NCBI GenBank assembly: GCA_964019425.1
Contig: OZ025798.1
Coordinates: 248,001-312,000, forward strand
Reading direction: 5' to 3'
Length of the DNA: 64,000 nt
From: Flectonema sp. DT1601
Lineage: Eukaryota
Shown here: piece after piece, positions 736 to 51,424 of the stretch
Numbering within the stretch: the stretch's first letter is position 1
Layout of the letters: each line of letters opens with the position of its first letter
Notes under the pieces: generated by a model
Told to the model about the DNA's origin: nothing
Database searches by the model: none
The model's input: only the letters and a program-made list of their open reading frames with translations
Made by a program: the position numbers and the translations under genes

Positions 736-1758
736 TCACTTGGAAATCAGGTGGTTTGGCATACAGATCATGTCTCCGGCACCACGTCCATTCTCAACGT
801 AGCACCCGTAACCAGCCCCCATCAACCTTTTGGTATCGTCAGCACCTCTTGCCGAATCATAGGTGCCCATTATACTACAAATTATTCCAGAACACCTATT
901 TATTGTGTCCGAGTCTGCTGGTGTCCATCCCTGATTGCAGCTCGACGAAAAAGTGTTGATTGTCAGAGAAGAGCAAGGTACCGATGGTAGTGGAGTAGGT
1001 GCTGGTGGTGGCGGAGTTTGTGCTAGAACTGGAGTTGTGTTGTTTGGCATACAGATCAGGTCAACGGCACTACTTCCATCCTCAACATAGCATCCGTAAC
1101 CAGCTCCCAGCAACCTTTTGGTATCGTCAGCACCACTTGCCGAATCATAGGTGCCCATTATACTACAAATTATTCCAGAACACCTGTTTATTGTGTCCGA
1201 ATCTGCTGGTGTCCATCCCGAACTGCAGCTCGATGAAAAAGTGTCGACTGTCAGAGAAGAGCAAGGTACCGATGGTGGTGGAGTAGGTGCTGGTGGTGGT
1301 GGAGTAGGTGCTGGAACTGGAGTTGTGTTGTTTGGCATACAGATCATGTCTCCGGCACCACTTCCATCCTCAACATAACATCCGTAACCTGCCCCCATCA
1401 ACCTTTTGGTACCGTCAGCACCTCTTGCCAAATCCCAGGTGTCCATCATACTACAAATTGTTGCAGCACAATTACTCATTGTTTCCGTGTCTGCTGGTTT
1501 CATTCCCGTATTGCAGCTCGATGATTGCCTGACGATACTCAGTGAGCTGCAATCAAAAGCAGTCTGTTTGTATTTTAATAACACCCGACAATACCGATAC
1601 TAAATTCAGACTGTTAGTTGGTACGAAACTCTTGTTGTACAAACTAACTAAGTAACCCTTCCACACAACAACAAATCATTTCAATAAGGAAGGGAATGAT
1701 GAAATAATAAACATACCGAAGACGCAAACAAACCGATAACAACAACAAAAGTCTTCAT
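736..1758 (-). CDS. Secreted tandem APT-like lectin, 3 domains (type A); exons 1758-1717, 1563-736
   Basis: Exon 1 encodes MKTFVVVIGLFASS, donor GTATGT at 1716, acceptor AAACAG at 1564, in-frame join to TAFDC. Six-Cys domains with Pro/Thr linkers. Confidence 0.85.
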
Positions 1759-3969: not shown

Positions 3970-4974
3970 TCACTTGGAAATCAGGTGGTTTGGTATACAG
4001 ATCGCATCTCCGGCACCAGTTCCATTCTCAACATAGCATCCGTAACCAGATCCCATCAACCTTTTGGTACCGTCAGCACCTCTTGCCGAATCCCAGCTGT
4101 CCATTATACTACAAATTGTTGCAACACAATTAGTCACTGTTTCCGCGTCTGCTAGTGTCCATCCTTGATTGCAGCTCAACGATTGCCTGACGATTGTCAG
4201 CGAAGAGCAAGGTACCGATGGTGGTGGAGTAGGTGCTGGTAGTGGTGGAGTAGGTGCTGGAACTGGAGTTGTGTTGTTTGGCATACAGATCAAGTCTCTG
4301 GCAGCACCACTCTCAATATAGCATCCGTAACCAGATCCCATAAACCTTTTAGTATCATCAGCACCTCTTGCCAAATCCCAGGTGTCCATTAAACCACAGA
4401 TTGTTGCAGCACAATTAGTCATTGTTTCCGTGTCTGCTAGTGTCCTTCCCACATTGCAGCTCGATGATTGCCTCATGATTGTCAGCGAAGAGCAAGGTAC
4501 CGATGGTGGCGGAGTAGGTGCTGGTGGTGGTGGAACTGGAGTTGTGTTGTTTGGCATGCAGATCATGTCTCTGGCACCACCACTCTCAATATAGCATCCG
4601 TAACCAGATCCCAGTAAGCATTTAGAATCGTCAGCACCTCTTGCCATACCCCAGGTGTCCATTAAACCACAGATTGTTGCAGCACACATATTTATTGTTT
4701 CCGTGTCTGCTGGTTTCATTCCCGTATTGCAGCTCGATGATTGCCTGACGATACTCAGTGAGCTGCAATCAAAAGCAGTCTGTTTGTATTTTAATAACAC
4801 CCGACAATACCGATACTAAATTCAGACTGTTAGTTGGTACGAAACTCTTGTTGTACAAACTAACTAAGTAACCCTTCCACACAATAACAAATCATTTCAA
4901 TAAGGAAGGGAATGATGAAATAATAAACATACCGAAGACGCAAACAAACCGATAATAACAACAAAAGTCTTCAT
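3970..4974 (-). CDS. Secreted tandem APT-like lectin, 3 domains (type B); exons 4974-4933, 4779-3970
   Basis: Same two-exon structure; conservative V>I change in the signal peptide. Confidence 0.85.
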
Positions 4975-6195: not shown

Positions 6196-6231
<36 letters not shown>

Positions 6232-7381: not shown

Positions 7382-10180
7382 TTAAGGCAATAAATTGATT
7401 TTATCAGAATGCCACAACAGTGAAGTTTTCTGCTTAGAAATCAGGTGGCTTGGCATACAGATCATGTCTCCGGCACCAGTTCCATCCTCAACATAGCATC
7501 CGTAACCATGTCCCATCAACCTTTTGTTCCCGTCAGCACCTCTTGCCAAATCCCAAGTGTTCATCATATTACAAATTGTTGTAGCACAATTCATCATTGT
7601 TTCCGTGTCTGCTGGTTTCATTCCCGAATTGCAACTCGATGATTGCCTGATGATTGACAGCGAAGAGCAAGGTACCGATGGTGGTGGAGTAGGTGCTGGT
7701 GGTGGTGGAGTAGGTGCTGGAACTGGAGTTGTGTTGTTTGGCATACAGATCATGTCTCCGGCCCCGGTTCCATCCTCAACATAGCATCCGTAACCATGTC
7801 CCATCAACCTTTTGTCCCCGTCAGCACCTCTTGCCAAATCCCAAGTGTTCATCATATTACAAATTGTTGTAGCACAATTCATCATTGTTTCCGTGTCTGC
7901 TGGTTTCATTCCCGAATTGCAACTCGATGATTGCCTGATGATTGACAGCGAAGAGCAAGGTACCGATGGTGGTGGAGTAGGTGCTGGTGGTGGTGGAGTA
8001 GGTGCTGGAACTGGAGTTGTGTTGTTTGGCATACAGATCATGTCTCCGGCACCAGTTCCATCCTCAACATAGCATCCGTAACCATGTCCCATCAACCTTT
8101 TGTTCCCGTCAGCACCTCTTGCCAAATCCCAAGTGTTCATCATATTACAAATTGTTGTAGCACAATTCATCATTGTTTCCGTGTCTGCTGGTTTCATTCC
8201 CGAATTGCAACTCGATGATTGCCTGATGATTGACAGCGAAGAGCAAGGTACCGATGGTGGTGGAGTAGGTGCTGGTGGTGGTGGAGTAGGTGCTGGAACT
8301 GGAGTTGTGTTGTTTGGCATACAGATCATGTCTCCGGCCCCGGTTCCATCCTCAACATAGCATCCGTAACCATGTCCCATCAACCTTTTGTCCCCGTCAG
8401 CACCTCTTGCCAAATCCCAAGTGTTCATCATATTACAAATTGTTGTAGCACAATTCATCATTGTTTCCGTGTCTGCTGGTTTCATTCCCGAATTGCAACT
8501 CGATGATTGCCTGATGATTGACAGCGAAGAGCAAGGTACCGATGGTGGTGGAGTAGGTGCTGGTGGTGGTGGAGTAGGTGCTGGAACTGGAGTTGTGTTG
8601 TTTGGCATACAGATCATGTCTCCGGCACCAGTTCCATCCTCAACATAGCATCCGTAACCATGTCCCATCAACCTTTTGTCCCCGTCAGCACCTCTTGCCA
8701 AATCCCAAGTGTTCATCATATTACAAATTGTTGTAGCACAATTCATCATTGTTTCCGTGTCTGCAGGTTTCATTCCCGAATTGCAGCTCGATGATTGCCT
8801 GATGATTGACAGCGAAGAGCAAGGTACTGATGGTGGTGGAGTAGGTGCTGGTGGTGGTGGAGTAGGTGCTGGAACTGGAGTTGTGTTGTTTGGCATACAG
8901 ATCATGTCTCCGGCACCAGTTCCATCCTCAACATAGCATCCGTAACCATGTCCCATCAACCTTTTGTCCCCGTCAGCACCTCTTGCCAAATCCCAAGTGT
9001 TCATCATATTACAAATTGTTGTAGCACAATTCATCATTGTTTCCGTGTCTGCTGGTTTCATTCCCGAATTGCAACTCGATGATTGCCTGATGATTGACAG
9101 CGAAGAGCAAGGTACCGATGGTGGTGGAGTAGGTGCTGGTGGTGGTGGAGTAGGTGCTGGAACTGGAGTTGTGTTGTTTGGCATACAGATCATGTCTCCG
9201 GCCCCGGTTCCATCCTCAACATAGCATCCGTAACCATGTCCCATCAACCTTTTGTCCCCGTCAGCACCTCTTGCCAAATCCCAAGTGTTCATCATATTAC
9301 AAATTGTTGTAGCACAATTCATCATTGTTTCCGTGTCTGCTGGTTTCATTCCCGAATTGCAACTCGATGATTGCCTGATGATTGACAGCGAAGAGCAAGG
9401 TACCGATGGTGGTGGAGTAGGTGCTGGTGGTGGTGGAGTAGGTGCTGGAACTGGAGTTGTGTTGTTTGGCATACAGATCATGTCTCCGGCACCAGTTCCA
9501 TCCTCAACATAGCATCCGTAACCATGTCCCATCAACCTTTTGTCCCCGTCAGCACCTCTTGCCAAATCCCAGGTGTTCATCATATTACAAATTGTTGTAG
9601 CACAATTCATCATTGTTTCCGTGTCTGCTGGTTTCATTCCCGAATTGCAACTCGATGATTGCCTGATGATTGACAGCGAAGAGCAAGGTACCGATGGTGG
9701 TGGAGTAGGTGCTGGTGGTGGTGGTGTTGGTGCTGGAACTGGAGTTGTGTTGTTTGGCATACAGATCATGTCTCCGGCACCAGTTCCATCCTCAACATAG
9801 CATCCGTAACCATGTCCCATCAACCTTTTGTTCCCGTCAGCACCTCTTGCCAAATCCCAGGTGTTCATCATATTACAAATTGTTGTAGCACAATTCATCA
9901 TTGTTTCCGTGTCTGCTGGTTTCATTCCCGAATTGCAGCTTGATGATTGCCTGACGATACTCAGTGAGCTGCAATCAAAAGCAGTCTGTTTGTATTTTAA
10001 TAACACCCGACAATACCGATACTAAATTCAGACTGTTAGTTGGTACGAAACTCTTGTTGCACAAACTAACTAAGTAACCCTTCCACACAATAACAAATCA
10101 TTTAAATAAGGAAGGGAATCATGAAATAATAAACATACCGAAGACGCAAACAAACCGATAACAACAACAAAAGTCTTCAT
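7382..10180 (-). CDS. Secreted tandem APT-like lectin, 9 near-identical domains (type C); exons 10180-10139, 9985-7382
   Basis: 288-nt periodicity. The usual stop is lost, giving a 16-aa C-terminal extension. Confidence 0.85.
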
Positions 10181-11179: not shown

Positions 11180-12175
11180 TCACTTGGAAATCAGGTGGTT
11201 TGGTATACAGATCACGTTTCCGACACCAGTTCCATTCTCAACATAGCATCCGTAACCAGGTCCCATCAACCTTTTGGTACCGTCAGCACCTCTTGCCATA
11301 TCCCAGGTGTCCATTAAACCACAAATTGTCGCGGCACAAGTGATCATTGTTTCCGTGTCGGCTGGTGTCCATCCCAAATTGCAGCTCGATGATTGCCTGA
11401 TGATTGTCAGAGAAGAGCAAGGTACCGATGGTGGTGGAGTAGGTGCTGGAACTGGAGTTGTGTTGTTTGGCATACAGATTATGTCTGCGGCACCACCACT
11501 CTCAACATAGCATCCGTAACCAGGTCCCACCAACCTTTTGGTAAGGTCAGCACCTCTTGCCATATCCCAGGTGTCCATTAAACCACAAATTGTCGCGGCA
11601 CAATTAGTCATTGTTTCCGTGTTTGCAGGGTTCATTCCCGAATTGCAGCTCGATGATTCTCTGATGATTGACAGCGAAGAGCAAGGTACTGACGGTGGTG
11701 GAGTAGGTGCTGGTGGTGGTGGAGTAGGTGCTGGAACTGGAGTTGTGTTGTTTGGCATACAGATTATGTCTGCGGCACCACCACTCTCAACATAGCATCC
11801 GTAACCAGGTCCCAACAACCTTTTGGTACCGTCAGCACCTCTTGCCATATCCCAGGTGTCCATTAAACCACAAATTGTTGCGGCACAATTAGTCATTGTT
11901 TCCGTGTCTGCTGGTTTCATTCCCGAATTGCAGCTCGATGATTGCCTGACGATACTCAGTGAGCTGCAATTAAAAGCAGTCTGTTTGTATTTTAATAACA
12001 CCCGACAATACCGATACTAAATTCAGACTGTTAGTTGGTAAGAAACTCTTGTTGTACAAACTAACTAAGTAACCCTTCCACACAACAACAAATCATTTCA
12101 ATAAGGAAGGGAATGATGAAATAATAAACATACCGAAGACGCAAACAAACCGATAACAACAACAAAAGTCTTCAT
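11180..12175 (-). CDS. Secreted tandem APT-like lectin, 3 domains (type D); exons 12175-12134, 11980-11180
   Basis: Same structure; domains carry GPGY as in aerolysin. Confidence 0.85.
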
Positions 12176-13778: not shown

Positions 13779-15086
13779 TCACTTGGAAATCAGGTGGTTT
13801 GGTATACAGATCGCATCTCCGGCACCAGTTCCATTCTCAAAGTAGCATCCGTAACCAGATCCCATCAACCTTTTGGTGTCGTCAGCACCTCTTGCCGAAT
13901 CCCAGACGCCCATTAAACCACAAATTACTATAGCACAATTAGTCACTGTTTCCGCGTCTGCTAGTGTCCATCCCTGATTGCAGCTCGATGATTGCCTGAC
14001 GATTGTCAAATATAAGCAAGGAACCGATGGTGGTGGAGTAGGTGCTGGTGGTGGAGGAGTAGGTGCTGGAACTGGAGTTGTGTTGTTTGGCATACAGATC
14101 ATGTCTGTGGCACCAATTCCATCCTCAACAAAGCATCCGTAACCAGATCCCACCAACCTTTTGTCCCCGTCAGCACCTCTTGCCGTATCATAGGTGCCCA
14201 TTATACTACAAATTATTCCAGAACACCTATTTATTGTGTCCGAATCTGCTGGTGTCCATCCCGAATTGCAGCTCGATGAAAAAGTGTTGACCGTCAGAGA
14301 AGAGCAAGATACCGATGGTGGTGGAGTAGGTACTGACGGTGGTGGAGTAGGTGCTGGAACTGCAGTTGTGTTGTTTGGCATACAGATCATGTCTGTGGCA
14401 CCACTTCCATCCTCAACAATACATCCGTAACCAGGTCCCACCAATCTTTTGGTATTGTCAGCACCTCTTGCCACACCCCAGTTGTCCATTTTACCACAAA
14501 TTGTTGCAACACAATTACTCATTATTTCCGTGTCTACTGGTGTCCATCCCAGATTGCAGCTCGATGATTGCCTGACGATTGACAGCGAATAGCAAGGTAC
14601 CGATGGTGGCGGAGTAGGTGCTGGTGGTGGCGGTGTTGGTGCTGGAACTGGAGTTGTGTTGTTTGGCATACAGATCAAGTCTCTGGCACCACCACTCGCA
14701 ACATAGCATCCGAAACTAGATCCCATTAACATTCTGGTACTGTCAGCACCTCTTGCCGTACCCCAGCTACCCATTAAACCACAAATTGTTGCAGCACACA
14801 TATTTATTGTTTCCGTGTCTGCTGGTTTCATTCCCGAATTGCAGCTCAATGATTGCCTGACGATACTCAGTGAGCTGCAATCAAAAGCAGTCTGTTTGTA
14901 TTTTAATAACACCCGACAATACCGATACTAAATTCAGACTGTTAGTTGGTACGAAACTCTTGTTGTACAAACTAACTAAGTAACCCTTCCACACAACAAC
15001 AAATCATTTCAATAAGGAAGGGAATGATGAAATAATAAACATACCGAAGACGCAAACAAACCGATAACAACAACAAAAGTCTTCAT
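13779..15086 (-). CDS. Secreted tandem APT-like lectin, 4 divergent domains (type E); exons 15086-15045, 14891-13779
   Basis: Same structure. Confidence 0.85.
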
Positions 15087-19663: not shown

Positions 19664-20665
19664 TCACTTGGAAATCACGTGGTTTGGCATACAGATCATG
19701 TCTGTGGCACCAAATTCATCCTCAACATAGCATCCGTAACCAGAACCCATCAACCTTTTAGTATCGTCAGCACCTCTTGCCATATCCCAGGTGTCCATTA
19801 AACCACAAATTGTTGCAGCACACTTAGTCATTGTTTCCGTGTCTGCTGGTTTCATTCCCCAACTGCAGATCGATGATTGCCTGACGATTGACAGCGAAGA
19901 GCAAGGTACCGATGGTGGCGGAGTAGGTGCTGGTGGTGGTTGAGTAGGTGCTGGAACTGGAGTTGTGTTGTTCGACATACAGATGATACTTCCCGCACCA
20001 CTTCCATTCTCAACAATGCATCCGTAACCCAATCCCATAAATCGTTTGCTAGGGTCAGCACCTCTTGCCATATCCCAGGTGCCCATCAAATCACAAATAG
20101 TTCTCGAACAAGCAGTCATGGTGTCCGTGTCTGCTGGCCTCAATCCCGAATCGCACACCATCGAATGCTGCTTAACCATCACGTGGGAGCAATTTGGAGC
20201 TGGTGGTGTTGGAGTTGGAGTTGGAGTTGGGGTTGGTACCGGTGGAGGTGTTGGAGGGTGGCTTGGCATACAGATCATGTCTGTGGCACCAAATTCATTA
20301 TCCTCAACATAGCATCCGTAACCAGAACCCATCAATCTTTTGCCCCCGTCAGCACCTCTTGCCATATCCCAGGTGTCCATTAAACCACAAATTGTTGTAG
20401 CACAATTCATCATTGTTTCCGTGACTGCTGGTGTCCATCCCAAATTGCAGCTCGATGATTGCCTGACGATACTCAGTGAGCTGCAATCAAAAGCAGTCTG
20501 TTTGTATTTTAATAACACCCGACAATACCGATACTAAATTCAGACTGTTAGTTGGTACGAAACTCTTGTTGTCAATAACAAATCATTTCAATAAGGAAGG
20601 GAATGATGAAATAATAAACATACCGAAGACGCAAACAAACCGATAACAACAACAAAAGTTTTCAT
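19664..20665 (-). CDS. Secreted tandem APT-like lectin, 3 domains (type F); exons 20665-20624, 20497-19664
   Basis: Intron 27 nt shorter but splice sites kept; synonymous AAG>AAA in exon 1; (PT)n linker. Confidence 0.85.
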
Positions 20666-34854: not shown

Positions 34855-34899
<45 letters not shown>

Positions 34900-36047: not shown

Positions 36048-37364
36048 TTAAGGCAATAAATTGATTTTATCAGAATGCCACAACAGTGAAGTTTTCTGCT
36101 TAGAAATCAGGTGGTTTGGCATACAGATCATGTCTCCGGCACCAGTTCCATCCTCAACATAGCATCCGTAACCATGTCCCATCAACCTTTTGTTCCCGTC
36201 AGCACCTCTTGCCAAATCCCAAGTGTTCATCATATTACAAATTGTTGTAGCACAATTCATCATTGTTTCCGTGTCTGCAGGTTTCATTCCCGAATTGCAG
36301 CTCGATGATTGCCTGATGATTGACAGCGAAGAGCAAGGTACCGATGGTGGTGGAGTAGGTGCTGGTGGTGGTGGTGTTGGTGCTGGAACTGGAGTTGTGT
36401 TGTTTGGCATACAGATCATGTCTCCGGCCCCGGTTCCATCCTCAACATAGCATCCGTAACCATGTCCCATCAACCTTTTGTTCCCGTCAGCACCTCTTGC
36501 CAAATCCCAGGTGTTCATCATATTACAAATTGTTGTAGCACAATTCATCATTGTTTCCGTGTCTGCTGGTTTCATTCCCGAATTGCAACTCGATGATTGC
36601 CTGATGATTGACAGCGAAGAGCAACGTACTGATGGTGGTGGAGTAGGTGCTGGAACTGGAGTTGTGTTGTTTGGCATACAGATCATGTCTCCGGCACCAG
36701 TTCCATCCTCAACATAGCATCCGTAACCATGTCCCATCAACCTTTTGTCCCCGTCAGCACCTCTTGCCAAATCCCAAGTGTTCATCATATTACAAATTGT
36801 TGTAGCACAGTTCATCATTGTTTCCGTGTCTGCTGGTTTCATTCCCGAATTGCAACTCGATGATTGCCTGATGATTGACAGCGAAGAGCAACGTACTGAT
36901 GGTGGTGGAGTAGGTGCTGGAACTGGAGTTGTGTTGTTTGGCATACAGATCATGTCTCCGGCACCAGTTCCATCCTCAACATAGCATCCGTAACCATGTC
37001 CCATCAACCTTTTGTCCCCGTCAGCACCTCTTGCCAAATCCCAAGTGTTCATCATATTACAAATTGTTGTAGCACAGTTCATCATTGTTTCCGTGTCTGC
37101 TGGTTTCATTCCCGAATTGCAGCTTGATGATTGCCTGACGATACTCAGTGAGCTGCAATCAAAAGCAGTCTGTTTGTATTTTAATAACACCCGACAATAC
37201 CGATACTAAATTCAGACTGTTAGTTGGTACGAAACTCTTGTTGCACAAACTAACTAAGTAACCCTTCCACACAATAACAAATCATTTAAATAAGGAAGGG
37301 AATGATGAAATAATAAACATACCGAAGACGCAAACAAACCGATAACAACAACAAAAGTCTTCAT
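36048..37364 (-). CDS. Secreted tandem APT-like lectin, 4 domains (type C); exons 37364-37323, 37169-36048
   Basis: Same structure; two shortened linkers; C-terminal extension as in the other type C copies. Confidence 0.85.
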
Positions 37365-38969: not shown

Positions 38970-40277
38970 TCACTTGGAAATCAGGTGGTTTGGTATACAG
39001 ATCGCATCTCCGGCACCAGTTCCATTCTCAAAGTAGCATCCGTAACCAGATCCCATCAACCTTTTGGTATCGTCAGCACCTCTTGCCGAATCCCAGACGC
39101 CCATTAAACCACAAATTACTATAGCACAATTAGTCACTGTTTCCGCGTCTGCTAGTGTCCATCCCTGATTGCAGCTCGATGATTGCCTGACGATTGTCAA
39201 ATATAAGCAAGGAACCGATGGTGGTGGAGTAGGTGCTGGTGGTGGAGGAGTAGGTGCTGGAACTGGAGTTGTGTTGTTTGGCATACAGATCATGTCTGTG
39301 GCACCAATTCCATCCTCAACAAAGCATCCGTAACCAGATCCCACCAACCTTTTGGTATCGTCAGCACCTCTTGCCGTATCATAGGTGCCCATTATACTAC
39401 AAATTATTCCAGAACACCTATTTATTGTGTCCGAATCTGCTGGTGTCCATCCCGAATTGCAGCTCGATGAAAAAGTGTTGACTGTCAGAGAAGAGCAAGG
39501 TACCGATGGTGGTGGAGTAGGTACTGACGGTGGTGGAGTAGGTGCTGGAACTGCAGTTGTGTTGTTTGGCATACAGATCATGTCTGTGGCACCACTTCCA
39601 TCCTCAACAATACATCCGTAACCAGGTCCCACCAATCTTTTGGTATTGTCAGCACCTCTTGCCACACCCCAGTTGTCCATTTTACCACAAATTGTTGCAA
39701 CACAATTACTCATTGTTTCCGTGTCTACTGGTGTCCATCCCAGATTGCAGCTCGATGATTGCCTGACGATTGACAGCGAATAGCAAGGTACCGATGGTGG
39801 CGGAGTAGGTGCTGGTGGTGGCGGTGTTGGTGCTGGAACTGGAGTTGTGTTGTTTGGCATACAGATCATGTCTCTGGCACCACCACTCGCAACATAGCAT
39901 CCGAAACTAGATCCCATTAACATTCTGGTACTGTCAGCACCTCTTGCCGTACCCCAGCTACCCATTAAACCACAAATTGTTGCAGCACACATATTTATTG
40001 TGTCCGTGTCTGCTGGTTTCATTCCCGAATTGCAGCTCGATGATTGCCTGACGATACTCAGTGAGCTGCAATCAAAAGCAGTCTGTTTGTATTTTAATAA
40101 CACCCGACAATACCGATACTAAATTCAGACTGTTAGTTGGTACGAAACTCTTGTTGTACAAACTAACTAAGTAACCCTTCCACACAACAACAAATCATTT
40201 CAATAAGGAAGGGAATGATGAAATAATAAACATACCGAAGACGCAAACAAACCGATAACAACAACAAAAGTCTTCAT
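38970..40277 (-). CDS. Secreted tandem APT-like lectin, 4 domains (type E); exons 40277-40236, 40082-38970
   Basis: Same structure. Confidence 0.85.
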
Positions 40278-42448: not shown

Positions 42449-42586
42449 TCACTTGGAAATCAGGTGGTTTGGTATACAGATCGCATCTCCGGCACCAGTT
42501 CCATTCTCAAAGTAGCATCCGTAACCAGATCCCATCAACCTTTTGGTATCGTCAGCACCTCTTGCCGAATCCCAGCTGTCCATTAT
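42449..42586 (-). pseudogene. Truncated array gene: only the C-terminal half of the last domain remains
   Basis: Encodes IMDSWDSARGADDTKRLMGSGYGCYFENGTGAGDAICIPNHLISK*, then breaks abruptly into unrelated sequence at ~42587. Confidence 0.85.
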
Positions 42587-43001
42587 ATTTTTTGTTCCTC
42601 AACAAAGAGCTTCATTGCCCTGCCTGCACTGTGATCTCTTCTTATGGTCTGTGTTGAACTATGCAATCGCCCTTGACACATTGGTGGCAGAGTTCACCAT
42701 CTCACCAATGTTAAGCAACTCCTCCCTTGACCACTTCTCATAGCAGCGAGACGTTTGTGCTCTTTTACCCGCTGCTCTTTCTTTATCAAACCCAGCACCA
42801 CCTTGCTTTCAGGGGTTCAAAAGCATCCCGTTTTTTCAAAAAATTGTGCATAGTGAAAAATTTCATACTCAAAAACTACCATTTTACAGTCAAAATGTGT
42901 ACTTTCATACTTTTTTAAAAATCCACCAAGTTTTTTTTCCGAGAATCCACCATCTTTTTTATATCCAAAGTTGTTATAATCCAAATTTTTTATACACCGT
43001 G
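42587..43001 (-). mobile_element. Unrelated ~400-bp insert, possibly the 5' end of a decayed DNA transposon
   Basis: Not homologous to any other spacer. A minus-strand frame reads ...RCYEKWSREELLNIGEMVNSATNVSRAIA*, which weakly resembles a transposase HTH N-terminus. TTGGAT(T)ATAA sub-repeats lie near 42960-42985. Confidence 0.3.
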
Positions 43002-43119: not shown

Positions 43120-46100
43120 TTACTTGGAAATCAGGTGGCTTGGCATACAGATCACGTTTCCGACACCAGTTCCATTCTCAACATAGCATCCGTAACCAGA
43201 TCCCATCAATCTTTTGCCCCCGTCAGCACCTCTTGCCATATCCCAGTTGTCCATTAAACCACAAATTGTTGTAGAACACGTAACCATTGTTTCCGTGTCT
43301 GCTGGTGTCCATCCCAGATTGCAGCTTGATGATTGCTTGATGATTGACAGCGAAGAGCAAGGTACCGATGGTGGTGGAGTAGGTGCTGGTGGTGGTTGAG
43401 TAGGTGTTGGAACTGGAGTTGTGTTGTTCGACATACAGATGATACTTCCCGTACCACTTCCATTCTCAATAATGCATCCGTAACCCAATCCCATGAATCG
43501 TTTGTTAGGGTCAGCACCTCTTGCCATATCCCAGGTGCCCATCAAATCACAAATAGTTCTCGAACAAGCAGTCATGGTGTCCGTGTCTGCTGGCCTCAAT
43601 CCCGAATCGCACACCATCGAATGTTGCTTAACCATCACGTGGGAGCAATTTGGAGTTGGTGGTGTTGGAGTTGGAGTTGGAGTTGGGGTTGGTACCGGTG
43701 GAGGTGTTGGAGGGTGGCTTGGCATACAGATCACATCTCCGGCACCAGTTCCATTCTCAACATAGCATCCGTAACCAGATCCCATCAACCTTTTGGTATC
43801 GTCAGCACCTCTTGCCATATCCCAGTTGTCTATTAAACCACAAATTGTTGTAGAACACGTAACCATTGTTTCCGTGTCTGCTGGTGTCCATCCCAGATTG
43901 CAGCTTGATGATTGCTTGTTGATACTCAGTGAGCTGCAATCAATAGCAGTCTGTTTGTATTTTAATAACACCCGACAATACCGATAGTTAGTTAGTTAGT
44001 TAGTTAGTTAGCTAGCCCGACATACCATCGAGTACCGGTTAGATAGACACAACAGGGTGGAACGGTTAACCACCTGTGAGTCCCCAATACTACGACTTTA
44101 TGTCGAACCTGATCCCTGAGAGGATCACTTTTTTAGCGTAAGCGAGGAAATCTAATGTTCGAGAGACACTGATACCTCAATGCTTCGGCCTTGACCGGTT
44201 CGCCAGCGAAATAACAAAGTTTGGGGAGGGGAAAGGAAGTTGATAATGATAATGATAATGATAAAAGGCAAAAACAAAAAAGAATTGGCTTTAACTTCAA
44301 CTATACAGAAAATAATGATATAACACTGTGATTTTTTGTTTGTGCACGAAACCGGACCCCTTTCCAGTGGATTGTTCGTGGCCGTCGTGTCTAGTTTGAT
44401 ATGGTATCTATCAAAGTTGGGAGAATAACGGTCTTTTATGAGATAATAAACCGATGTGATGCGGTGTTCGTTCTTCTTGTGTATCATTTCTTAGTATGCT
44501 TCATCTTCCAGTCTAGTGTGCTTGTCAGCAATATTGTCCTCGCTCACCACGTACTCGACGTGCAGAACTGAACTAGACCTGTCCAACAGTCGATGAATAG
44601 TCCGTAACATGGGTTGTACATTTTGTTGTAGAGAATAGCCACGGTGCAACGAACCGATAACTCCCTTGTTGTCTACATGTCCTGTCACCCTGCAACTCTG
44701 CAGTTTTAACTCTGTCACTACATATTCAATGGCCTTGACTACTGCGAAAAATTCCTTTTCGAAAATCCCCATGTTCACTATATCGTGCGGGAAGCGTCCT
44801 CTCCGATAAGAGTTTCCCACTACAAATGCCCAGGCTTTTGTACTTGCATCAGATACGAAAGTTATTTCTGTTTCATATCTACGCTTATTCCACCGCACCC
44901 ATTCGTTCTTCACAAGCTCCCTGAACTCGAGCCTAAGAGAGTTCATGTACTCCTCTGAGATTTTCACTGCTGTGTTCCAGAAAACCTTAGATTTCGGGTC
45001 GCCTTCCTGCATCAGTTCAGACATTCCCATCAGGAGTTCTGTCGCCTCGTGTAGACGTAATCTCAGCGCATGACGTCTCCACAAAATGATTCCCGAAATC
45101 TTCCAGTAACTACGTCGTAGGTTCACGCGTGAGTCCAAGATCATTTTCCCTGGTTCAGCGACCGCTTTGACCCATTTTTCCTTTAGTTTCCAACATTTCC
45201 TCGTCAAGTCAGCTTCTATTCCTAATGTGATTATGTATGTGTTGGGTTCTGTGACCGCGCCTATCGTAATTGAATATTTCAGACATAGAGTTCGGAATCT
45301 ATCTCTAACCGATTGTAGAACCTGTATATCATCCGCCGCAAAGATGGCATTGTCAATCCACCCAATGCCGGACACATCCCTCCCATCTATTGCATCTTCG
45401 ATCAGATTCAGAAGAACAGCCTGGGCCAATTGAGGTGCACCTCTGTACCCCATCGGCAGACGTGTCATCCGGTAGATCTTCTTGTCTACTCGAAAAGAGA
45501 ACAATGGTCTAATTCTTTCAGGAATCGGGAATTGAAAGAAATACGATGCAAAGTCAAACTCGCAAGCGTATCTACGTGGTAGCAAGGTTTCCACTATCGT
45601 TTCGTAAGACGGTAGCCTGCATGGCGGTAACGAGGTATAAGCTGTTAACTCAGTAATAGTCTTACAATTTAGGATGAAACGTAATTGTCCAGGTGTACTT
45701 TTCGGTATGAGAAACGCAGAGTGCATGAATCTATTCGTCGTCGATCTAGGAGATGGTTCGGCGAAACCAAGCTCAAGCATGCGTTCGGTATGAGGTTTTA
45801 ATTGGACATTCTTTGCGCCTATCCCAGATTCGTCTTCTTGTGGCGAATTGTTAATCACTTGGATGACAAAGTTCGGATCTGCAATCCATCTCATGTTTGT
45901 TCTCAGGTTCGGATAGCTTCCCACTAGCAGTTCCATGTTTACCGGTTCCATTCTTATTCCAGATATGGTTCCGTCATAACATGTTCGCGGACAACGTGTT
46001 CCAGTTATCCCCGTTAGCCATCCTTCCGCGTAGTCGTACATGCGGAATCCTGCTTCCAATTTTGAAGCCCAAAAAGGTCTGTCATGGATAGCTTTCACTG

Positions 46101-49100
46101 CAGTAGTGCGGCCGCTTTTATCGTATTCCGAGTCGAGGTCCAAGTCTCCGGCGGTATGTAGAACTGGGTTGACGTCCCTGATGCATGCCGCGCCATCGCC
46201 TGAGCGTCCCGTTCCGACGACTCCAACGCGACATACGTGAGTGCACTGTGACGTATGTAGTGGCTCGTGGTGTCGAGATGTCTTTCCAGCCATCTGTTGT
46301 ATCCCGATCGGTTCAAACCCGTGAATACCATTTCGCCATTCGTTGTTGTCAACCATTGCAACACCACGCGGAATAAAGAGCCATTTTTTGCTACCAGAAT
46401 CCATTGACCTCGTCTCGTTTTGTCGGTCTTCCCCCCGACCAAGCCAATTAGGTAACCGTTCCTGACTTCTCGGATGTCCCGTCTCCTCAGTAGCATCAGG
46501 TCGATAAATCTCGCCGCCAGAGACCATTGTGTGGCCAACACCGCTACATACATCCCTTCCTGTCGACGGATTACTTCCGTGATCTCTTCCTTGGTGCGTA
46601 TTTTCGTCAGCATTCCCTCCCTTCGCTGATTTTCGTCTGTTGACCTTGTCATGGCCTTCCGGAATGCAGCTGTGGGCGGAATTGCAGCCGAGCGAAAACT
46701 TGCCAAGTATTGGTTCGCCGACTGTGGTTGCAACTCTCCCAAGTTGATCTTTGCCTGTAGCCACAGGAGGAAACTCCGCGTCGGCGGCATATCCGGTTTT
46801 ATCGCACATATGGTTGCATCGAAGGGGATCCAATTTCGCATTACCGATCTTATCGATGCTTGTGTCGATTCGGCGAAACAACCGGTCAGTGTCAGGTCCA
46901 ACTGACTCTCGAGTTCCTCGAGTTTCTCCGAGTTCACTATGGCAAGTGATTTTTTCGGCGGTCTTCCGATCCGCTTTTTGCCTTGCGTCCCTTCTGGAAC
47001 AGGCCCCCACACATCGTGTGGTTTTCCTCCATTCAATACTTCCTCTTTCCTCCAGCTCCCTTCCCTGAAAAATGACGTTTACGGTCGCCACCGCTCATTT
47101 GGTCACCCTCGTGGGTTTGCCCCGGGAGCGCGGTTCTCATCGTCTCCTTCATCGCGAGGCCAATTAGTCGCTCCGTATACTCCCCGTATCCGTACGTCTT
47201 GAGGTACCCCTCATAGGCGCCGGTCATCTTTCTGTTCCTCGTCGAGAACAGCAGATCTTCCATGCGGTCCACCGCCACTTGCAACGTCTGCCTGACGTGC
47301 CCTGAGCTGTTGGAGACCGGTAGCAGGCCGTCAATCATTCTCAGCAAGTGCCGCATTTCGTGCGACACTGCCCCCCCGCCCTCGACAGCAGTCCCGGGAT
47401 TGCTTTTCCGTTGACTGTGCCGTAACGCTGTTGCAAACCTGCAAACACGTAATTCAGGCCAGACGGGGTTTTTAGGTTTTCCACCCAAGTGACGACCCTA
47501 CGTGGATCCATCGTCACCCGCTCCACTACAGTTAATTCCTTAACTGTTTCCGCAACTGGCATCGTTGCGTTAAAATGTCGCCCTTCCGGTACGAGCATTG
47601 CATATGGGGCTCCATTCCGGAGCACAAACCCACATGGAGGACACACCCATTCCTGGGATGCCTCAGGCAACCACCTGGCTTGGGTGACTTCGTCGTTGCC
47701 TAAACGGGACTTGAGACATTCCGTCTCGCCCATTTCACCGCATCGGTGACAGTTCGTGCCGTCCGTATGTATTTTTCCGCATAACGGAAACACACAACAT
47801 TGGTCTGTCGCTGACGGATGCGCCCCTTCCGGGATCTCAGGCACCTCGACAGTTGACCAGTCGAAATCTTGTGGGATATCTACTTTCGACATTTTGTGAG
47901 TTTTTGTTTGTGCACGAAACCGTGAACCGACTTAAACTGATAAAGCTAAAGGAGGTTTACGTGTGCTGCCAACATTCTTTTTCGTTCTTACAATACTTGT
48001 TAAATGCAAAAAAAAAAAAGAAAAAAACAGAAGGGAATGGATAGAGAATTCATATGTTAAATAAGTAATAGTAATTATAGTAATCCTGGATGAATTTTGA
48101 CTGCTACTGATGATGACTGACCTAAGAGGATGCCAGTGTCACATGCCAAGAGATATGTCGATATAGGACTTAGTCGGAGGTCCACGGACCCTGTGGTCAA
48201 ACCAATTGGGATTAATCCTTTTGTAGTCGGCGTAGTGGATCTTATTCAAAAGATCTGTGAATTGCGTTCCCACGATACCGAGGTAGCAATTCAGTTCCAC
48301 TGTCCATAGATGTTCATGTATCTCCTTGATTTCGGTGCGGTCGTATTCTTGTGTGATGGCCTGCATGACTACGGTCGTGTCATTCGGGGATAACTTTGGA
48401 AGATTGGAGTATCTGTTGAGGTGTCACAGAAGTTTCTGTCTTGGTATGGCTACGCGTAGCGGGAAACTCATTAAGTAGCTGTCCAATTCCTTCAGCATGG
48501 CGGCTAAAAACGGTTGATTGTCTGTATCGAAGAAGGTATGATGGTGCTGGCCTACATCTTCCGTGTCATCTGTCGGGAGATTCGGGAAGAACTTTCGAAC
48601 AATCTGACTCACTCCCTTGCACTTAGAGAGGAGGTGGTTGCGCATCTGTCTCGGTGTGATCACAGAATCGGCAGTCGGTAAGACCCAAACCTGGCAGCTT
48701 AACCAATTTGTGGTGACCAGTGCGTATTTGAGCAATACTCACCTCGTCCTCCCGAGAGATGTCAGGATGAAACCTCTGTACTCTTCCTGCTGATGTAGCT
48801 AAGCAGTGGACATGCATTGTGTCGCGGGATCTGAGCCATTCCCTTCTCACCTGGCTGATTATGGAACATTGGGCCATGCGGTAGTCGAACTCAACTTCCG
48901 TGAGCGGCAGGTCGGAAGCCGCCGCTTTGGAGGCTAGGTTGTCCGCCAATTCATTCCCTATTACACCACAATGGGAGGGTACAAATTGAATTGATATCGG
49001 ACGGTTTAGGGAAGATATCATTTTAAATATCTCGCTGTTAGTACGCGAGGATTGGCATAGATAGCCTTTAGCCAGGCTTCTTAGCGACGACTGGCTATCC

Positions 49101-51424
49101 GATATGACGTGAATGCGACCATATGGGAGCCGTGCTGAGTTCTCGCGGATGAGATCGAGGGCTGAGATCAGTGTGCGCTGTTCGGCGTTGTAAATCATGA
49201 GTGAAGGATGGTAGCGCTGTTGCTTCTTGTAGCACTTGTTCCTGTTGACGAGTACTGCCGCGTTGCCACAGTGGTAATTGCCATCCTTGTCCTCGAAATA
49301 CGAAGCATCAGTGTATACTCTGGCAACTGCCGGCGGGAGAGACTCCAACGAAGCGATGGCAAATTTGAGGTTGAGTCCCGAGTCCTGTGACTTTCTGAAA
49401 TCTCTGTTAGGTATAATTGTTACGTTGGGTGGTGTTAACCACGGTACTTGGTAATGTTGTAAATACATCTGCGATCTGAGTCGGGGTGTTGGATAGCGTC
49501 TGGATGAATGCGAGGCTGAAGCTTCCCACGGAGTCTCCTCCTTATTGCCTTTGAAGAGACCCCATGTCGGTAGATTATCATTGTATCGCTGGAATCGTTC
49601 ATAGCACAGTGCTAGGGACTTAGTCAGATGTTGCTGAAACGGTAGAATATCTGACTCTACTGATACTGCTGAGGTCGACGCCGATTGGGAACAGCCCGTT
49701 AGTCTCAACATGAGCTTCCTGTGGACCGAGCTTACATGTGCCCATGATTTCTAGCGGAGGAATGGGGCGTATGCAGCTAGGCCGTGGAATGCCCTAGCTA
49801 GTACCAAACCATTCACCAGTTGTTTCAGAGTTTCCGTCTTGATCCTGAAGGATGAGATCATCTTTAGAAGACCAATTCCACGCTTCAGCGTGCTTTCCAT
49901 TTTGTTCAATTATGGAATAAAGGAGAGACGGTCGTCGATCAACACACCCAGATATCTCGCCTGTCTGAGAGGCTTGGCTGTTGTCATCGTGAGAGCCTTC
50001 TTACTCACTCTGCTTCGCAATTCTGAACGAGTCGACACCTTCCTTCCGTTCACAGTTAGGGGAAAGGTTGTTCCTCCATCGCGATTCAGTTGTGCTCCAG
50101 GTCCTATGTCTAAGTCGTCTAAAAGGTCCATCGGGCTTGAAATGGACTCCAGTTTTATAGTTGATGGAAGATACAGTCTAGGGAATCTACAGAGCCCCCT
50201 GCCAGGGTCAAACCGTGTGCCAATGGCTAGAAACTCCGTCTTCTCTATTGACAGACTCATTTCTGAGTCTACTAGCCAGCCCTCCACTTGCCGTATTGCC
50301 TCATTGGCTTTATCCTCCAGATCACCAACTTTCGTACTGCTAACAAATATAGAAAGGTCGTCTGCATAAAGAAGCTTCAGATCGGCACTCTTGATCGACT
50401 GTGGTAGGGAGTTGACGTATAGTCTGAAGAGGAGAGGTCCAAGGATGCTACCTTGTGGGACACCTTTATTACATTCGACCTTCTTCGAGAAAGAGTCGCC
50501 ATATTGCAGACGGGCCGACCGGTGAGTTAGGAAATCAGAGATCCATCTAACAAATGGTGACGGTAGGAGTGGTTTGAGTCTTGCTATTAACTTATTATGA
50601 TTAACATCATCAAAAGCACCTGAGATGTCAAAGAACAGCAGGACTCCACATCTGTTGAAATCGCTTCTTACTTCTGATGCTGCATTCGTTAAGACCGCGA
50701 TGTTTTCTTCAGTAGTCCTGACCGGGACGAAACCAGCTTGATTGGGGTCAAGGTTACCCTCCATAATATGCTCCAGTCGCCGGAGGATCAGAGATTCAAT
50801 GAATTTAGCCACAGTTATCGAAATCGGACGGTACGACGACGGTTCCACTGGATCTTTTCCATTACCTTTGAGAAATGGAATTACGTTGCTTCTTTAAAAC
50901 AATCTGGCAGAATGCCGCGCTGTAGTGACCAGTTGGCAATCTTGAGTAGGACCTCCTTCATCCCGGTTCCTAAGTGTAGAATCATGTTATTCGTGATTGC
51001 GTCAGGTCCCGCACTATCGGTCTTCCTGAGCGAGTGGAAAACGGCCTGGGCTTCTTCCAAAGAGAAGGGTTTACACTCAGGGATTTCGAGGTCTTCTGGT
51101 TTTACCGTTGGGGACTGTGATCTGCCTACATCGTTACTTGAGGGGAAAAAACGTTCCAACAGCGACTTCAGCGGGGCTTGTGGTTTAGGAAGGGACGTTT
51201 TATCACCTCTAAGTTCTCTCAGTTTCCTGTATGTCCAAGAAAAACCCTTATCGCTGCTACCGATACTAAATTCAGACTGTTAGTTGGTACGAAATTCTTG
51301 TTGTACAAACTAACTAAGTAACCCTTCCACACAATAACAAATCATTTCAATAAGGAAGGGAATGATGAAATAATAAACATACCGAAGACGCAAACAAACC
51401 GATAACAACAACAAAAGTCTTCAT
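43120..51424 (-). CDS. Secreted tandem APT-like lectin, 3 domains (type F); exons 51424-51383, 43950-43120; intron carries a 7.3-kb nested retroelement insertion
   Basis: Both exons and both splice sites are intact. The intron sequence resumes exactly at 51258 after the insertion. Confidence 0.8.
43979..43986. repeat. 8-bp target-site duplication TACCGATA (second copy at 51258-51265)
   Basis: Uninterrupted introns of the paralogues contain a single ...caaTACCGATActaaa. Confidence 0.9.
44327..44354. repeat. 28-bp internal direct repeat (second copy at 47895-47922; 27/28 identical)
   Basis: tgtga(t/g)tttttgtttgtgcacgaaaccg flanks the coding region on both sides. Confidence 0.9.
44491..47091 (-). 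CDS. Reverse transcriptase + RNase H of the YR retroelement (true start uncertain; first ATG after the YR gene is 46041)
   Basis: RT motifs FLIPK..LRFILNC, EFDFASYFFQF, LPMGYRGAP, WIDN, LGIE. DIRS-type RNase H motifs SDAS, IFEKE, VDN, V.SEDN.AD. Confidence 0.9.
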   Translation of the reverse strand: MATVNVIFQGRELEERGSIEWRKTTRCVGACSRRDARQKADRKTAEKITCHSELGETRGTRESVGPDTDRLFRRIDTSIDKIGNAKLDPLRCNHMCDKTGYAADAEFPPVATGKDQLGRVATTVGEPILGKFSLGCNSAHSCIPEGHDKVNRRKSAKGGNADENTHQGRDHGSNPSTGRDVCSGVGHTMVSGGEIYRPDATEETGHPRSQERLPNWLGRGEDRQNETRSMDSGSKKWLFIPRGVAMVDNNEWRNGIHGFEPIGIQQMAGKTSRHHEPLHTSQCTHVCRVGVVGTGRSGDGAACIRDVNPVLHTAGDLDLDSEYDKSGRTTAVKAIHDRPFWASKLEAGFRMYDYAEGWLTGITGTRCPRTCYDGTISGIRMEPVNMELLVGSYPNLRTNMRWIADPNFVIQVINNSPQEDESGIGAKNVQLKPHTERMLELGFAEPSPRSTTNRFMHSAFLIPKSTPGQLRFILNCKTITELTAYTSLPPCRLPSYETIVETLLPRRYACEFDFASYFFQFPIPERIRPLFSFRVDKKIYRMTRLPMGYRGAPQLAQAVLLNLIEDAIDGRDVSGIGWIDNAIFAADDIQVLQSVRDRFRTLCLKYSITIGAVTEPNTYIITLGIEADLTRKCWKLKEKWVKAVAEPGKMILDSRVNLRRSYWKISGIILWRRHALRLRLHEATELLMGMSELMQEGDPKSKVFWNTAVKISEEYMNSLRLEFRELVKNEWVRWNKRRYETEITFVSDASTKAWAFVVGNSYRRGRFPHDIVNMGIFEKEFFAVVKAIEYVVTELKLQSCRVTGHVDNKGVIGSLHRGYSLQQNVQPMLRTIHRLLDRSSSVLHVEYVVSEDNIADKHTRLEDEAY
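46095..47036 (-). CDS. Tyrosine recombinase
   Basis: Catalytic set in the expected order: R (LAARFIDL), K (GGKTD), HxxR (HYIR), H (ARHAS), Y (TQFYI). No ATG start. Confidence 0.9.
   Translation of the reverse strand: MNGGKPHDVWGPVPEGTQGKKRIGRPPKKSLAIVNSEKLEELESQLDLTLTGCFAESTQASIRSVMRNWIPFDATICAIKPDMPPTRSFLLWLQAKINLGELQPQSANQYLASFRSAAIPPTAAFRKAMTRSTDENQRREGMLTKIRTKEEITEVIRRQEGMYVAVLATQWSLAARFIDLMLLRRRDIREVRNGYLIGLVGGKTDKTRRGQWILVAKNGSLFRVVLQWLTTTNGEMVFTGLNRSGYNRWLERHLDTTSHYIRHSALTYVALESSERDAQAMARHASGTSTQFYIPPETWTSTRNTIKAAALLQ
47033..47892 (-). CDS. ORF1/gag-like protein with N-terminal PHD-finger-like motif, split over two frames (47892-47341 and 47488-47033)
   Basis: CVFPLC..CHRC..ETEC..WVCPPC. 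The two frames can be joined by a -1 shift at the G7 run (47371-47377). Confidence 0.6.
48139..51257 (-). pseudogene. Disrupted LINE ORF (RT, RNase H, zinc knuckle)
   Basis: RT motifs YRPIS, QAGF, DISGAFD, GVPQGSILGP, YADD, YLGV. RNase H motifs YTDAS, SDSQS, VPSHCGVIGNELAD. CRFC..HLLSKC spans a frameshift. Frameshift at ~50885, in-frame stop at 49910, further lesions at ~49750 and ~48640. Confidence 0.9.

What the first reader, a model, noticed from the sequence alone, without database searches (positions are those of the whole stretch)
736..51424. Eukaryotic array of secreted multivalent proteins built from the aerolysin glycan-binding (APT) domain, without a pore-forming domain
Seen: 14 genes with a signal peptide and 3-9 repeats such as CNSGMKPADTETMMNCATTICNMMNTWDLARGADGNKRLMGHGYGCYVEDGTGAGDMICMP. 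Knowledge, recalled from memory: Aeromonas aerolysin residues 19-77 read CGDKYRPVNREEAQSVKSNIVGMMGQWQISGLANGWVIMGPGYNGEIKPGTASNTWCYP. By hand the two align with only two single-residue insertions and about 18/59 identities. These include the C19-C75 disulfide pair and the receptor-binding residues W45, M57 and Y61, and type D copies keep MGPGY exactly. The APT domain has a C-type-lectin-like fold and binds N-glycans. Inference: a protist turned a bacterial-toxin targeting module, possibly acquired horizontally, into a 55-domain repertoire of secreted lectins/agglutinins with four extra Cys and Pro/Thr spacers. Possible roles are prey or host recognition, adhesion or defence. I know of no description of such a family.
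Basis: partly seen in the sequence, partly recalled or inferred. Interest (0 to 1): 0.9.

Follow-up and report, generated by a model that had tools for sequence, protein, structure and literature searches.

The report
Aerolysin-type lectin array in a diplonemid
A marine protist, likely a diplonemid, carries a tandem array of 14 genes for likely secreted proteins made only of 3-9 copies of a module with the predicted fold of the cell-binding tip of the bacterial toxin aerolysin, without the pore-forming part, so they likely act as multi-armed sugar-binding proteins rather than toxins.

Summary
In detail: 14 two-exon genes hold 55 six-cysteine domains (36 distinct) joined by Pro/Thr linkers, with no pore-forming domain. 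The domain is an aerolysin domain 1 (APT) homolog. A family profile hits aerolysin at E 6e-8. The model (pLDDT 93) matches it at TM 0.81 and Z 13.2.

The interpretation needs three changes.
(1) The nearest bacterial relatives are not the toxin. They are pore-less APT-like repeat proteins and fusions in myxobacteria, cyanobacteria and others, so the pore-less repeat design already exists in bacteria.
(2) The family occurs in four named diplonemid species and includes membrane forms with a sorting-receptor-like tail. The array likely derives from such a gene.
(3) Of the recalled binding residues, W45 and Y61 are kept family-wide; M57 is not.

Not shown: glycan binding, expression of this array, the direction of transfer, and positive selection. 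My literature searches found no description of the family. Verdict: a real, apparently undescribed variant of a known domain, likely multivalent lectins.

The parts
736..1758 (-). gene 1: exon 1 1717-1758, intron 153 nt, exon 2 736-1563; 289 aa, 3 APT-like domains
3970..4974 (-). gene 2: exon 2 3970-4779; 283 aa, 3 domains
7382..10180 (-). gene 3: exon 2 7382-9985; 881 aa, 9 near-identical domains
11180..12175 (-). gene 4: exon 2 11180-11980; 280 aa, 3 domains; third domain has MGPGY and was the one modelled
13779..15086 (-). gene 5: exon 2 13779-14891; 384 aa, 4 domains
17444..18793 (-). gene 6: intron 144 nt, exon 2 17444-18607; 401 aa, 4 domains; Pfam APT E 1.7e-15
19664..20665 (-). gene 7: intron 126 nt, exon 2 19664-20497; 291 aa, 3 domains
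22262..23257 (-). gene 8: near copy of gene 4; 280 aa, 3 domains
25468..27042 (-). gene 9: 473 aa, 5 domains (gene-5 type with one domain type present twice)
29218..30234 (-). gene 10: 287 aa, 3 domains (gene-2 type)
32369..33676 (-). gene 11: 384 aa, 4 domains (gene-5 type)
36048..37364 (-). gene 12: 387 aa, 4 domains (gene-3/6 type)
38970..40277 (-). gene 13: 384 aa, 4 domains (gene-5 type)
42449..42590 (-). orphan 3' half-domain with stop and 3' flank, no first exon: relic of a 15th gene
43120..51424 (-). gene 14: exon 1 51383-51424, 7432-nt intron, exon 2 43120-43950; 290 aa, 3 domains
43979..51265 (-). 5'-truncated, broken LINE-type retroelement in the gene 14 intron (RT 49910-50764, RNase H 48623-49711, (CTAA)n tail, 8-nt target-site duplication at about 43979-43986 and 51258-51265)
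44327..47922 (-). second retroelement nested in the first: RT 44491-46809, overlapping ORF with weak tyrosine-recombinase match 46095-46841 (E 0.032), Cys-rich ORF 47341-47892, 28-nt direct repeat at both ends; likely DIRS/Ngaro/VIPER-like (classification inferred)

Best explanation
The array encodes likely secreted proteins built from 3-9 copies of a domain with the predicted aerolysin domain 1 (APT) fold and no pore-forming part; they likely work as multivalent lectins that bind and cross-link glycans on cell surfaces. SHOWN: gene structure, domain homology, predicted fold, lack of a pore domain, and the family's presence in named diplonemids and bacteria. INFERRED mechanism: the signal peptide routes the protein through the ER. 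Three predicted disulfides harden each ~73-aa module: C13-C72 (aerolysin C19-C75), C33-C58 (shared with most bacterial relatives) and C1-C28 (found only in the diplonemid type). The face carrying the conserved Trp and Tyr (aerolysin W45, Y61) would bind a glycan weakly. Pro/Thr linkers, probably glycosylated, would hold the modules apart so that avidity gives tight binding or agglutination of prey, host or own-coat glycoconjugates. INFERRED history: diplonemids share an APT-like module with bacteria, probably gained from them early. It sits in type I membrane proteins, some with an ATG27/M6PR-like tail and a YxxPhi motif. In this lineage such a gene likely lost its anchor, multiplied the module, and was amplified and shuffled by unequal crossing-over and conversion.
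For: Fold: model pLDDT 92.9. Foldseek top hits are aerolysin (E 5e-6, TM 0.80-0.83, rmsd 1.5-2.3), then pertussis toxin subunits. VIA gives Z 13.2 (rmsd 2.5, 80 aligned) for aerolysin, 7.3 for pertussis toxin and at most 5.9 for C-type lectin domains. Sequence: family profile vs aerolysin E 6e-8; Pfam APT over its cut-off in 3 of 5 genes tested. Function of homologs: aerolysin domain 1 binds N-linked glycans and W45A disrupts this (passages, 10.64898/2026.07.29.741567); the pertussis APT domain is implicated in N-glycan binding (passages, PMC12002313). The W45 equivalent is W in 92 of 95 bacterial-type, 32 of 58 other six-Cys and 48 of 55 window domains; the Y61 equivalent is Y in 88 of 95, 34 of 58 and 51 of 55. 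In bacteria the module is fused to known lectin domains in 3 of 22 proteins scanned, plus one weak Lectin_C hit, and caps a protein whose N-terminal part resembles the pore-forming lectin LSL (E 2.7e-6). C33 and C58 are lost together in 6 of 95 bacterial domains and never singly. The spliced N-terminus matches a Flectonema neradi transcript protein whose domain is 72-74% identical to gene 14 domain 1. Thirteen of 23 six-Cys representatives have a C-terminal TM, and 5 of 23 hit Pfam ATG27/Man-6-P_recep. Diplonemids are mostly eukaryovores, scavengers or opportunistic parasites (passage, PMC8061765).
Against: No binding data exist for any member. A shared fold does not show a shared ligand, and the C-type-lectin-like rows include protein-binding domains. 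Single window domains fall below Pfam's cut-off (3 of 20 match at E <= 0.1, best 0.003), and genes 1 and 5 have no APT hit. The M57 equivalent is not conserved outside the window. W and Y are kept in only 55-59% of the other six-Cys domains. Diversifying selection, expected for a recognition repertoire, is not shown: a model with a fast neutral class fits better than the positive-selection model (lnL -2169 vs -2181). Eleven of 14 genes have a donor-like GT across the stop codon, so a further exon adding an anchor is not excluded. The Pfam ATG27/M6PR hits cover only the TM and tail, not a lectin domain. The direction of transfer is untested.
Confidence: 0.55

Rival explanations
1. The proteins are structural components of the mucilage or cell coat: disulfide-hardened modules on mucin-like linkers that glue cells to surfaces or to each other by binding the organism's own glycocalyx, not prey.
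For: Sessile Diplonema cells sit in a mucilaginous coat that attaches them and glues neighbours (passages, PMC5845003). High copy number and homogeneous 4-9-mers (genes 3, 6, 12) suit dosage. Positive selection is not shown. Each protein has 4-16 N-glycosylation sequons.
Against: The 55 domains fall into 15 types at 85% identity, and most genes mix types. Membrane relatives have sorting-type tails. No localisation data exist. This rival overlaps the best explanation and differs in the target.
Confidence: 0.2
2. The module binds a protein or lipid ligand rather than a glycan, as many C-type-lectin-like domains do.
For: Structural neighbours include protein-binding CTLDs and invasin. Aerolysin binding also depends on the receptor polypeptide (passage, PMC4183550). 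The M57 equivalent is not conserved family-wide.
Against: Both characterised APT domains are tied to glycan binding. Aromatic W and Y are the best-kept non-Cys, non-Gly residues. Fusions with lectin domains occur.
Confidence: 0.12
3. The proteins belong to a toxin conflict: either targeting subunits of a separately encoded pore-former, or decoys that mask the glycans used by bacterial APT-bearing toxins.
For: The module is the binding lobe of aerolysin and caps a second pore-former-like bacterial protein. Diplonemids have extrusomes and predatory stages.
Against: No pore-forming family was found among the 10 non-array window ORFs scanned. None was found among 41 neighbour ORFs of 7 stand-alone bacterial loci, 19 of which had no family. 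The proteins have no domain other than the repeat. The rest of this genome could not be searched.
Confidence: 0.08
4. Most genes have an unrecognised last exon, so the products are membrane-anchored receptors like their diplonemid relatives, not secreted proteins.
For: AA|GTGAGA or AA|GTAAGA spans the stop codon in 11 of 14 genes. A hydrophobic candidate exon follows an AG about 415 nt downstream in 9 of the 14 spacers examined.
Against: The T-rich spacers give up to six such candidates each. No spacer matches the relatives' TM/tail convincingly (best tblastn E 0.07). Genes 3, 6 and 12 lack the GT. A D. japonicum transcript protein with four domains ends without a TM (completeness not seen).
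Confidence: 0.1

Closest known systems
Aerolysin domain 1 (small lobe; Pfam PF03440 APT; PDB 1PRE)
   Same: Predicted fold (TM 0.8, Z 13.2), the C19-C75-equivalent pair in 55 of 55 domains, W45 and Y61 equivalents, 26-28% identity.
   Different: No pore-forming lobe; 3-9 copies instead of one; four more Cys; Pro/Thr linkers; eukaryotic intron-containing genes.
Pertussis toxin S2/S3 N-terminal APT domain
   Same: Second structural match (Z 7.3, rmsd 2.5, 80 aligned); implicated in N-glycan binding.
   Different: 14-18% identity, no sequence hit; part of an AB5 toxin, not a free repeat protein.
Bacterial stand-alone APT-like repeat proteins (hypothetical proteins of Myxococcota, cyanobacteria, Thiotrichaceae and others)
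   Same: Nearest bacterial relatives (HH probability 95.9); 2-4 tandem repeats, signal- or lipoprotein-like N-terminus, no pore domain; the C33/C58 pair.
   Different: Four (or two) Cys rather than six; short linkers; single genes, not arrays; function equally unknown.
CD-M6PR / ATG27-type sorting receptors
   Same: Membrane relatives in four diplonemid-type proteins plus one unnamed hit share the TM and tail region (Pfam PF09451/PF02157), several with YxxPhi.
   Different: The luminal domain is APT-like, not an MRH domain; the window proteins lack TM and tail.
Eukaryotic aerolysin-family toxins (biomphalysins and others)
   Same: Aerolysin-related genes in eukaryotes, linked to horizontal transfer (abstract start, PMC3424411; passages, PMC8047071).
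   Different: The mirror image: they keep the pore lobe and lack the APT lobe; this family keeps only the APT lobe.

Membership tests
APT domain (PF03440) | Profile match above Pfam's gathering score | tested here: inconclusive
   Met for 3 of 5 whole proteins by summed repeats (57.2, 25.5 and 25.1 bits vs cut-off 25); not met by single domains (best E 0.003 of 20).
APT domain (PF03440) | Sequence homology to aerolysin domain 1 by an independent profile | tested here: met
   A 52-sequence profile without aerolysin hits residues 15-86 at E 6e-8.
APT domain (PF03440) | Fold of aerolysin domain 1 / reduced C-type-lectin-like fold | tested here: met
   Predicted model, pLDDT 92.9; TM 0.81, rmsd 1.5-1.8; Z 13.2 over 80 residues.
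APT domain (PF03440) | C19-C75 disulfide pair | tested here: met
   Both Cys in 55 of 55 domains; the bond itself is inferred.
APT domain (PF03440) | Receptor-binding residues W45, M57, Y61 | tested here: inconclusive
   W 48, M 39, Y 51 of 55; all three in 34. The W45 role was read; the M57 and Y61 roles are recalled, not read.
APT domain (PF03440) | Binds N-glycans | not testable with these tools
   Needs glycan arrays.
Aerolysin-family beta-pore-forming toxins | Pore-forming large lobe (PF01117 / ETX-MTX2 fold) | tested here: not met
   Each protein consists wholly of signal, repeats, linkers and a 6-22 aa tail; no such Pfam hit in the 5 genes scanned.
Ca2+-dependent C-type lectins | CTLD sequence profile and Ca2+/sugar-binding loop | tested here: not met
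   No Lectin_C hit; the 73-aa module aligns to CTLDs of 110-150 aa only at Z <= 5.9.
P-type lectins (CD-M6PR/ATG27) | Luminal MRH domain plus TM and sorting tail | tested here: not met
   Window proteins have neither; relatives share only TM and tail.
Bacteria-to-eukaryote transferred gene | Eukaryotic sequences nested within a bacterial clade in a rooted tree | tested here: inconclusive
   59 six-Cys rows split from 79 bacterial-type rows (SH-aLRT 95); the tree is unrooted, has 68 columns, lacks aerolysin, and no clade test was run.

The most novel reading that the evidence does not exclude
Diplonemids run a two-part recognition system built on a bacterial APT module. A conserved membrane receptor carries the APT domain in place of the P-type lectin domain, on an M6PR/ATG27-like sorting tail. 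Lineage-specific arrays of secreted, domain-shuffled multivalent lectins tag or clump prey and hosts. This would be a protist counterpart of opsonin and receptor repertoires, and it would recast the APT domain as a widespread free lectin module that aerolysin and pertussis toxin borrowed.
Probability: 0.25. Interest if true: 0.85.

Novelty: new variant of a known kind. Interest (0 to 1): 0.62.

Why it matters
In the passages I read, the APT domain is described only as a part of aerolysin and pertussis toxin, and eukaryotic aerolysin relatives are said to lack it. This finding shows it as a free, repeatable module across several bacterial phyla and as an expanded family in diplonemids, which are among the most abundant marine protists and whose ecology is little known (abstract, PMC10161547). 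It offers concrete candidate prey- or host-recognition proteins that can be tested in the model species: DIPPA_15423 and DIPPA_05207 in D. papillatum. It also offers 36 natural variants of a 73-residue candidate lectin scaffold.

Tried and rejected
- No whole genome is held, so copy number and any pore-forming partner elsewhere are untested.
- No RNA holder was listed; this is no evidence on expression.
- The single-sequence three-domain model was poor (pLDDT 54) and gave no fold match; it was replaced by the alignment-based model.
- The Atlas gave no usable hit for the window domain and only scores of 0.75 for a bacterial relative.
- No match in plasmids or phages, in viral contigs (bacterial alignment), or in metagenome contigs (one Flectonema protein).
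- No relative among proteins of 859-2450 aa (weak evidence).
- Aerolysin family PF01117 was found in 0 of 5 bacterial genomes carrying the module, but the control rang nowhere, so this is uninformative.
- Positive selection: pN/pS 1.0 overall. M2a beat M1a (LRT 50), and 8 simulations with block-wise trees gave at most 8.9, but a fast-neutral-class null fitted better on all 74 codons and on codons 13-74. The claim is dropped.
- P0049 was dropped from the 43 hits as a spurious repeat match.
- DIPPA_15423 and DIPPA_05207 were not found in the held supplements of the P. papillatum proteome paper; the main file was cut when stored.
- Rossjohn 1997 and Hong 2002 are not held.
- Three look-ups in earlier findings returned nothing.
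- Contamination by bacterial DNA is rejected: the genes have spliceosomal-type introns, a pyrimidine tract and AG 12 nt before each ATG (likely a trans-splice acceptor), retroelements in an intron, and diplonemid transcript relatives.
- No complex prediction was run, because no binding between proteins is claimed.
Full report
1. The observation. The window holds 14 head-to-tail genes on the minus strand, from the stop at 736 to the ATG at 51424. Each has a 42-nt first exon, a phase-0 GT-AG intron and one long second exon; the spliced products are 280-881 aa without internal stops. They contain 55 domains of about 73 aa, 36 distinct, which fall into 15 types at 85% identity. All have six invariant cysteines and are joined by 16-24-aa Pro/Thr linkers. 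There is no other domain and no TM-like segment. The splice model is supported by a Flectonema neradi transcript protein whose N-terminus runs collinearly from the signal peptide into the first cysteine. Related spacers are mostly 92-98% identical over long blocks. The 13 short introns differ by 1.2% on average, against 11-12% for the first domains beside them. Some genes are homopolymers (3, 6, 12), while others mix types in a fixed order (5, 9, 11, 13). This pattern fits unequal crossing-over and conversion (inference); four-gamete incompatibility is 15% for near and 21% for far site pairs. Close copies ending the same way occur on other unnamed ENA contigs, so the family is larger than this array if those contigs are from the same or a related organism.

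2. The domain. Pfam APT scores above its cut-off in 3 of 5 genes scanned. Single domains do not reach it (3 of 20 at E <= 0.1), and the window-only profile reaches aerolysin only at E 0.36. With relatives added, a 52-sequence profile that contains no aerolysin hits aerolysin residues 15-86 at E 6e-8. The model of gene 4 domain 3 built on that alignment has pLDDT 92.9. Foldseek ranks aerolysin first (E 5e-6, TM 0.81, rmsd 1.5-1.8 for most chains), then pertussis toxin subunits. VIA-align gives Z 13.2 (rmsd 2.5, 80 aligned) for aerolysin, 7.3 for pertussis toxin and at most 5.9 for C-type lectin domains. A profile from bacterial domains alone separates 36 of 36 window domains from 1080 cysteine-fixed shuffles. 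The homology claim therefore stands.

3. Relatives. The window profile searched over 1.84 billion representatives returned 43 proteins: one from the window, one spurious repeat (dropped), 23 of a six-cysteine type and 18 of a four-cysteine type. I looked up 12 of the 23. Eight carry names, all diplonemids, two each from Diplonema japonicum, Flectonema neradi, Rhynchopus euleeides and D. papillatum; six of these are transcript assemblies; four are unnamed. The other 11 were not looked up. The window's domains group with the F. neradi protein (SH-aLRT 96) at 67-74% identity, so the source is likely a diplonemid; I did not determine the species. Thirteen of the 23 have a C-terminal TM segment. 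Five match Pfam ATG27/Man-6-P_recep in the TM and tail only, and several end in a YxxPhi motif (its role in sorting is my own knowledge). A one-domain, linker, TM, tail form occurs in F. neradi, in D. papillatum (DIPPA_15423) and on an unnamed contig (P0012), which makes it a plausible ancestral form (inference).

4. The bacterial side. Of the 18 four-cysteine hits, I looked up 8; two carry organism names (Pyxidicoccus, Spartinivicinus). A scan of GTDB genomes gave 31 loci: 15 Myxococcota, 6 cyanobacteria, 3 Thiotrichaceae, 2 Acidobacteriota and 5 others. This is a lower bound, because exact motifs were required. Eleven loci encode stand-alone 2-3-repeat proteins; 20 carry one domain in a larger or partial protein. 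Among 22 proteins scanned, partners include MVL plus DM9, OAA-family sugar-binding domains (twice), kinase, caspase and solute-binding domains. One unnamed protein joins the module to a region like the pore-forming lectin LSL. None of 41 neighbour ORFs from 7 stand-alone loci matched a pore-forming family; 19 had no family. Cysteines come in pairs: two in aerolysin and in 6 cyanobacterial domains, four in 89 of 95 bacterial-type domains, and a further pair only in the diplonemid type. So the pore-less repeat design and two of the four 'extra' cysteines exist in bacteria. A tree of 138 of 168 domain rows (near-duplicates dropped; 68 columns) separates the 59 six-cysteine rows from the 79 bacterial-type rows at SH-aLRT 95. 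It is unrooted and lacks aerolysin, so it names no donor or direction. Transfer from bacteria is the simplest reading of the distribution. D. papillatum has at least 96 genes so acquired (passage, PMC10161547), but transfer is not shown for this family.

5. How it likely works. Aerolysin domain 1 binds N-linked glycans and W45A disrupts this (passages, 10.64898/2026.07.29.741567). The pertussis APT domain is implicated in N-glycan binding (passages, PMC12002313 and PMC11610972). The W45 and Y61 equivalents are the best-kept aromatic positions across the family. The M57 equivalent is mostly Asp in bacteria and variable in other diplonemids; the roles of M57 and Y61 are recalled, as I saw MacKenzie 1999 only as a reference entry. 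I infer secreted, disulfide-hardened, multivalent lectins whose avidity lets them coat or clump glycan-bearing surfaces (0.55). The target is open: prey or host, given eukaryovory and opportunistic parasitism (passage, PMC8061765), or the organism's own mucilage (passages, PMC5845003). A recognition arms race would predict positive selection. A standard site test gave LRT 50, but a model with a fast neutral class fitted better, so only a constrained scaffold with fast-changing sites is shown. One caveat on secretion: 11 of 14 genes have a donor-like GT across the stop codon, and without RNA a further exon cannot be excluded.

6. Novelty. Searches of the held library found no description of this family: 'APT domain' + aerolysin gave 5 papers, 4 listed, passages read in 3; Diplonema + aerolysin gave 0; PF03440 gave 2, unrelated by title; aerolysin + APT + tandem + lectin + protist gave 0. 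The D. papillatum genome paper has no 'aerolysin', 'lectin' or 'toxin' in its main text and no 'aerolysin' or 'pertussis' in 7 held supplements; it lists DIPPA_05207 as a hypothetical protein. Subscription journals were not searched. Automatic Pfam annotation already marks APT on some of these proteins. Described eukaryotic aerolysin relatives such as biomphalysins keep the pore lobe and lack the APT lobe (passages); this family is the reverse.

7. Verdict. This is a real array and a real APT homolog, not a toxin and not a C-type lectin by membership, though it likely works like a multivalent lectin. It is a new variant of a known kind: a known binding domain in an apparently undescribed architecture and lineage, with a wider bacterial and diplonemid family behind it. 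Interest 0.62. The boldest reading not excluded is a paired receptor and secreted-lectin recognition system in diplonemids (probability 0.25, interest 0.85).

Noticed in passing
window 43979-51265: Gene 14's intron holds a broken LINE-type element with RNase H, a (CTAA)n tail and an 8-nt target-site duplication, and nested in it a second element with RT, a weak tyrosine-recombinase-like ORF and a 28-nt terminal direct repeat. The gene's exons and splice sites remain intact.
   Followed up: partly
window, stop codons of 11 of 14 genes and of the relic at 42449: A splice-donor-like GTGAGA/GTAAGA overlaps the stop codon; genes 3, 6 and 12 have GCAG there and read on 16 more residues.
   Followed up: partly
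window 52046-53278: A 410-aa protein with two globin domains and an N-terminal MGC motif (possible myristoylation/palmitoylation site, recalled).
   Followed up: no
window 54540-58070: A 1176-aa ORF with a SAM-like N-terminus (by eye), a weak dynein-stalk match and many short repeats with an SRGR-G-V motif; no Pfam family over cut-off.
   Followed up: no
window 58323-63787: Adenylate/guanylate cyclase domains in two adjacent ORFs, probably exons of one gene.
   Followed up: no
P0038 / DIPPA_05207: Its orthogroup OG0027225 in PMC10161547 has one D. papillatum member and one 'Ahoya' member (likely the kinetoplastid Azumiobodo hoyamushi), a possible occurrence outside diplonemids.
   Followed up: no
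L022:3000-6608, L024:1037-2356: Cyanobacterial proteins with a long N-terminal region of no Pfam family and a C-terminal two-Cys APT-like domain; two lie in tandem in L022.
   Followed up: no
L017:3531-5186, L020:2535-5207, L026:2162-3757, P0043: The module is the C-terminal, likely extracellular, domain of myxobacterial Ser/Thr kinases, a cyanobacterial caspase-like protein and a TIR protein, suggesting use as a sensor domain.
   Followed up: partly
P0041, P0048: Two unnamed three-repeat proteins of the bacterial four-Cys type with atypical low-complexity N-termini; their origin (bacterial or another eukaryote) is unknown.
   Followed up: partly
L006: The record titled Comamonas sp. KCTC 72670 encodes a three-repeat protein that groups with Myxococcus/Corallococcus proteins; possible mislabel or transfer.
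   Followed up: no
P0056: A Rhynchopus euleeides protein joins a WD40 propeller to three APT-like domains.
   Followed up: no
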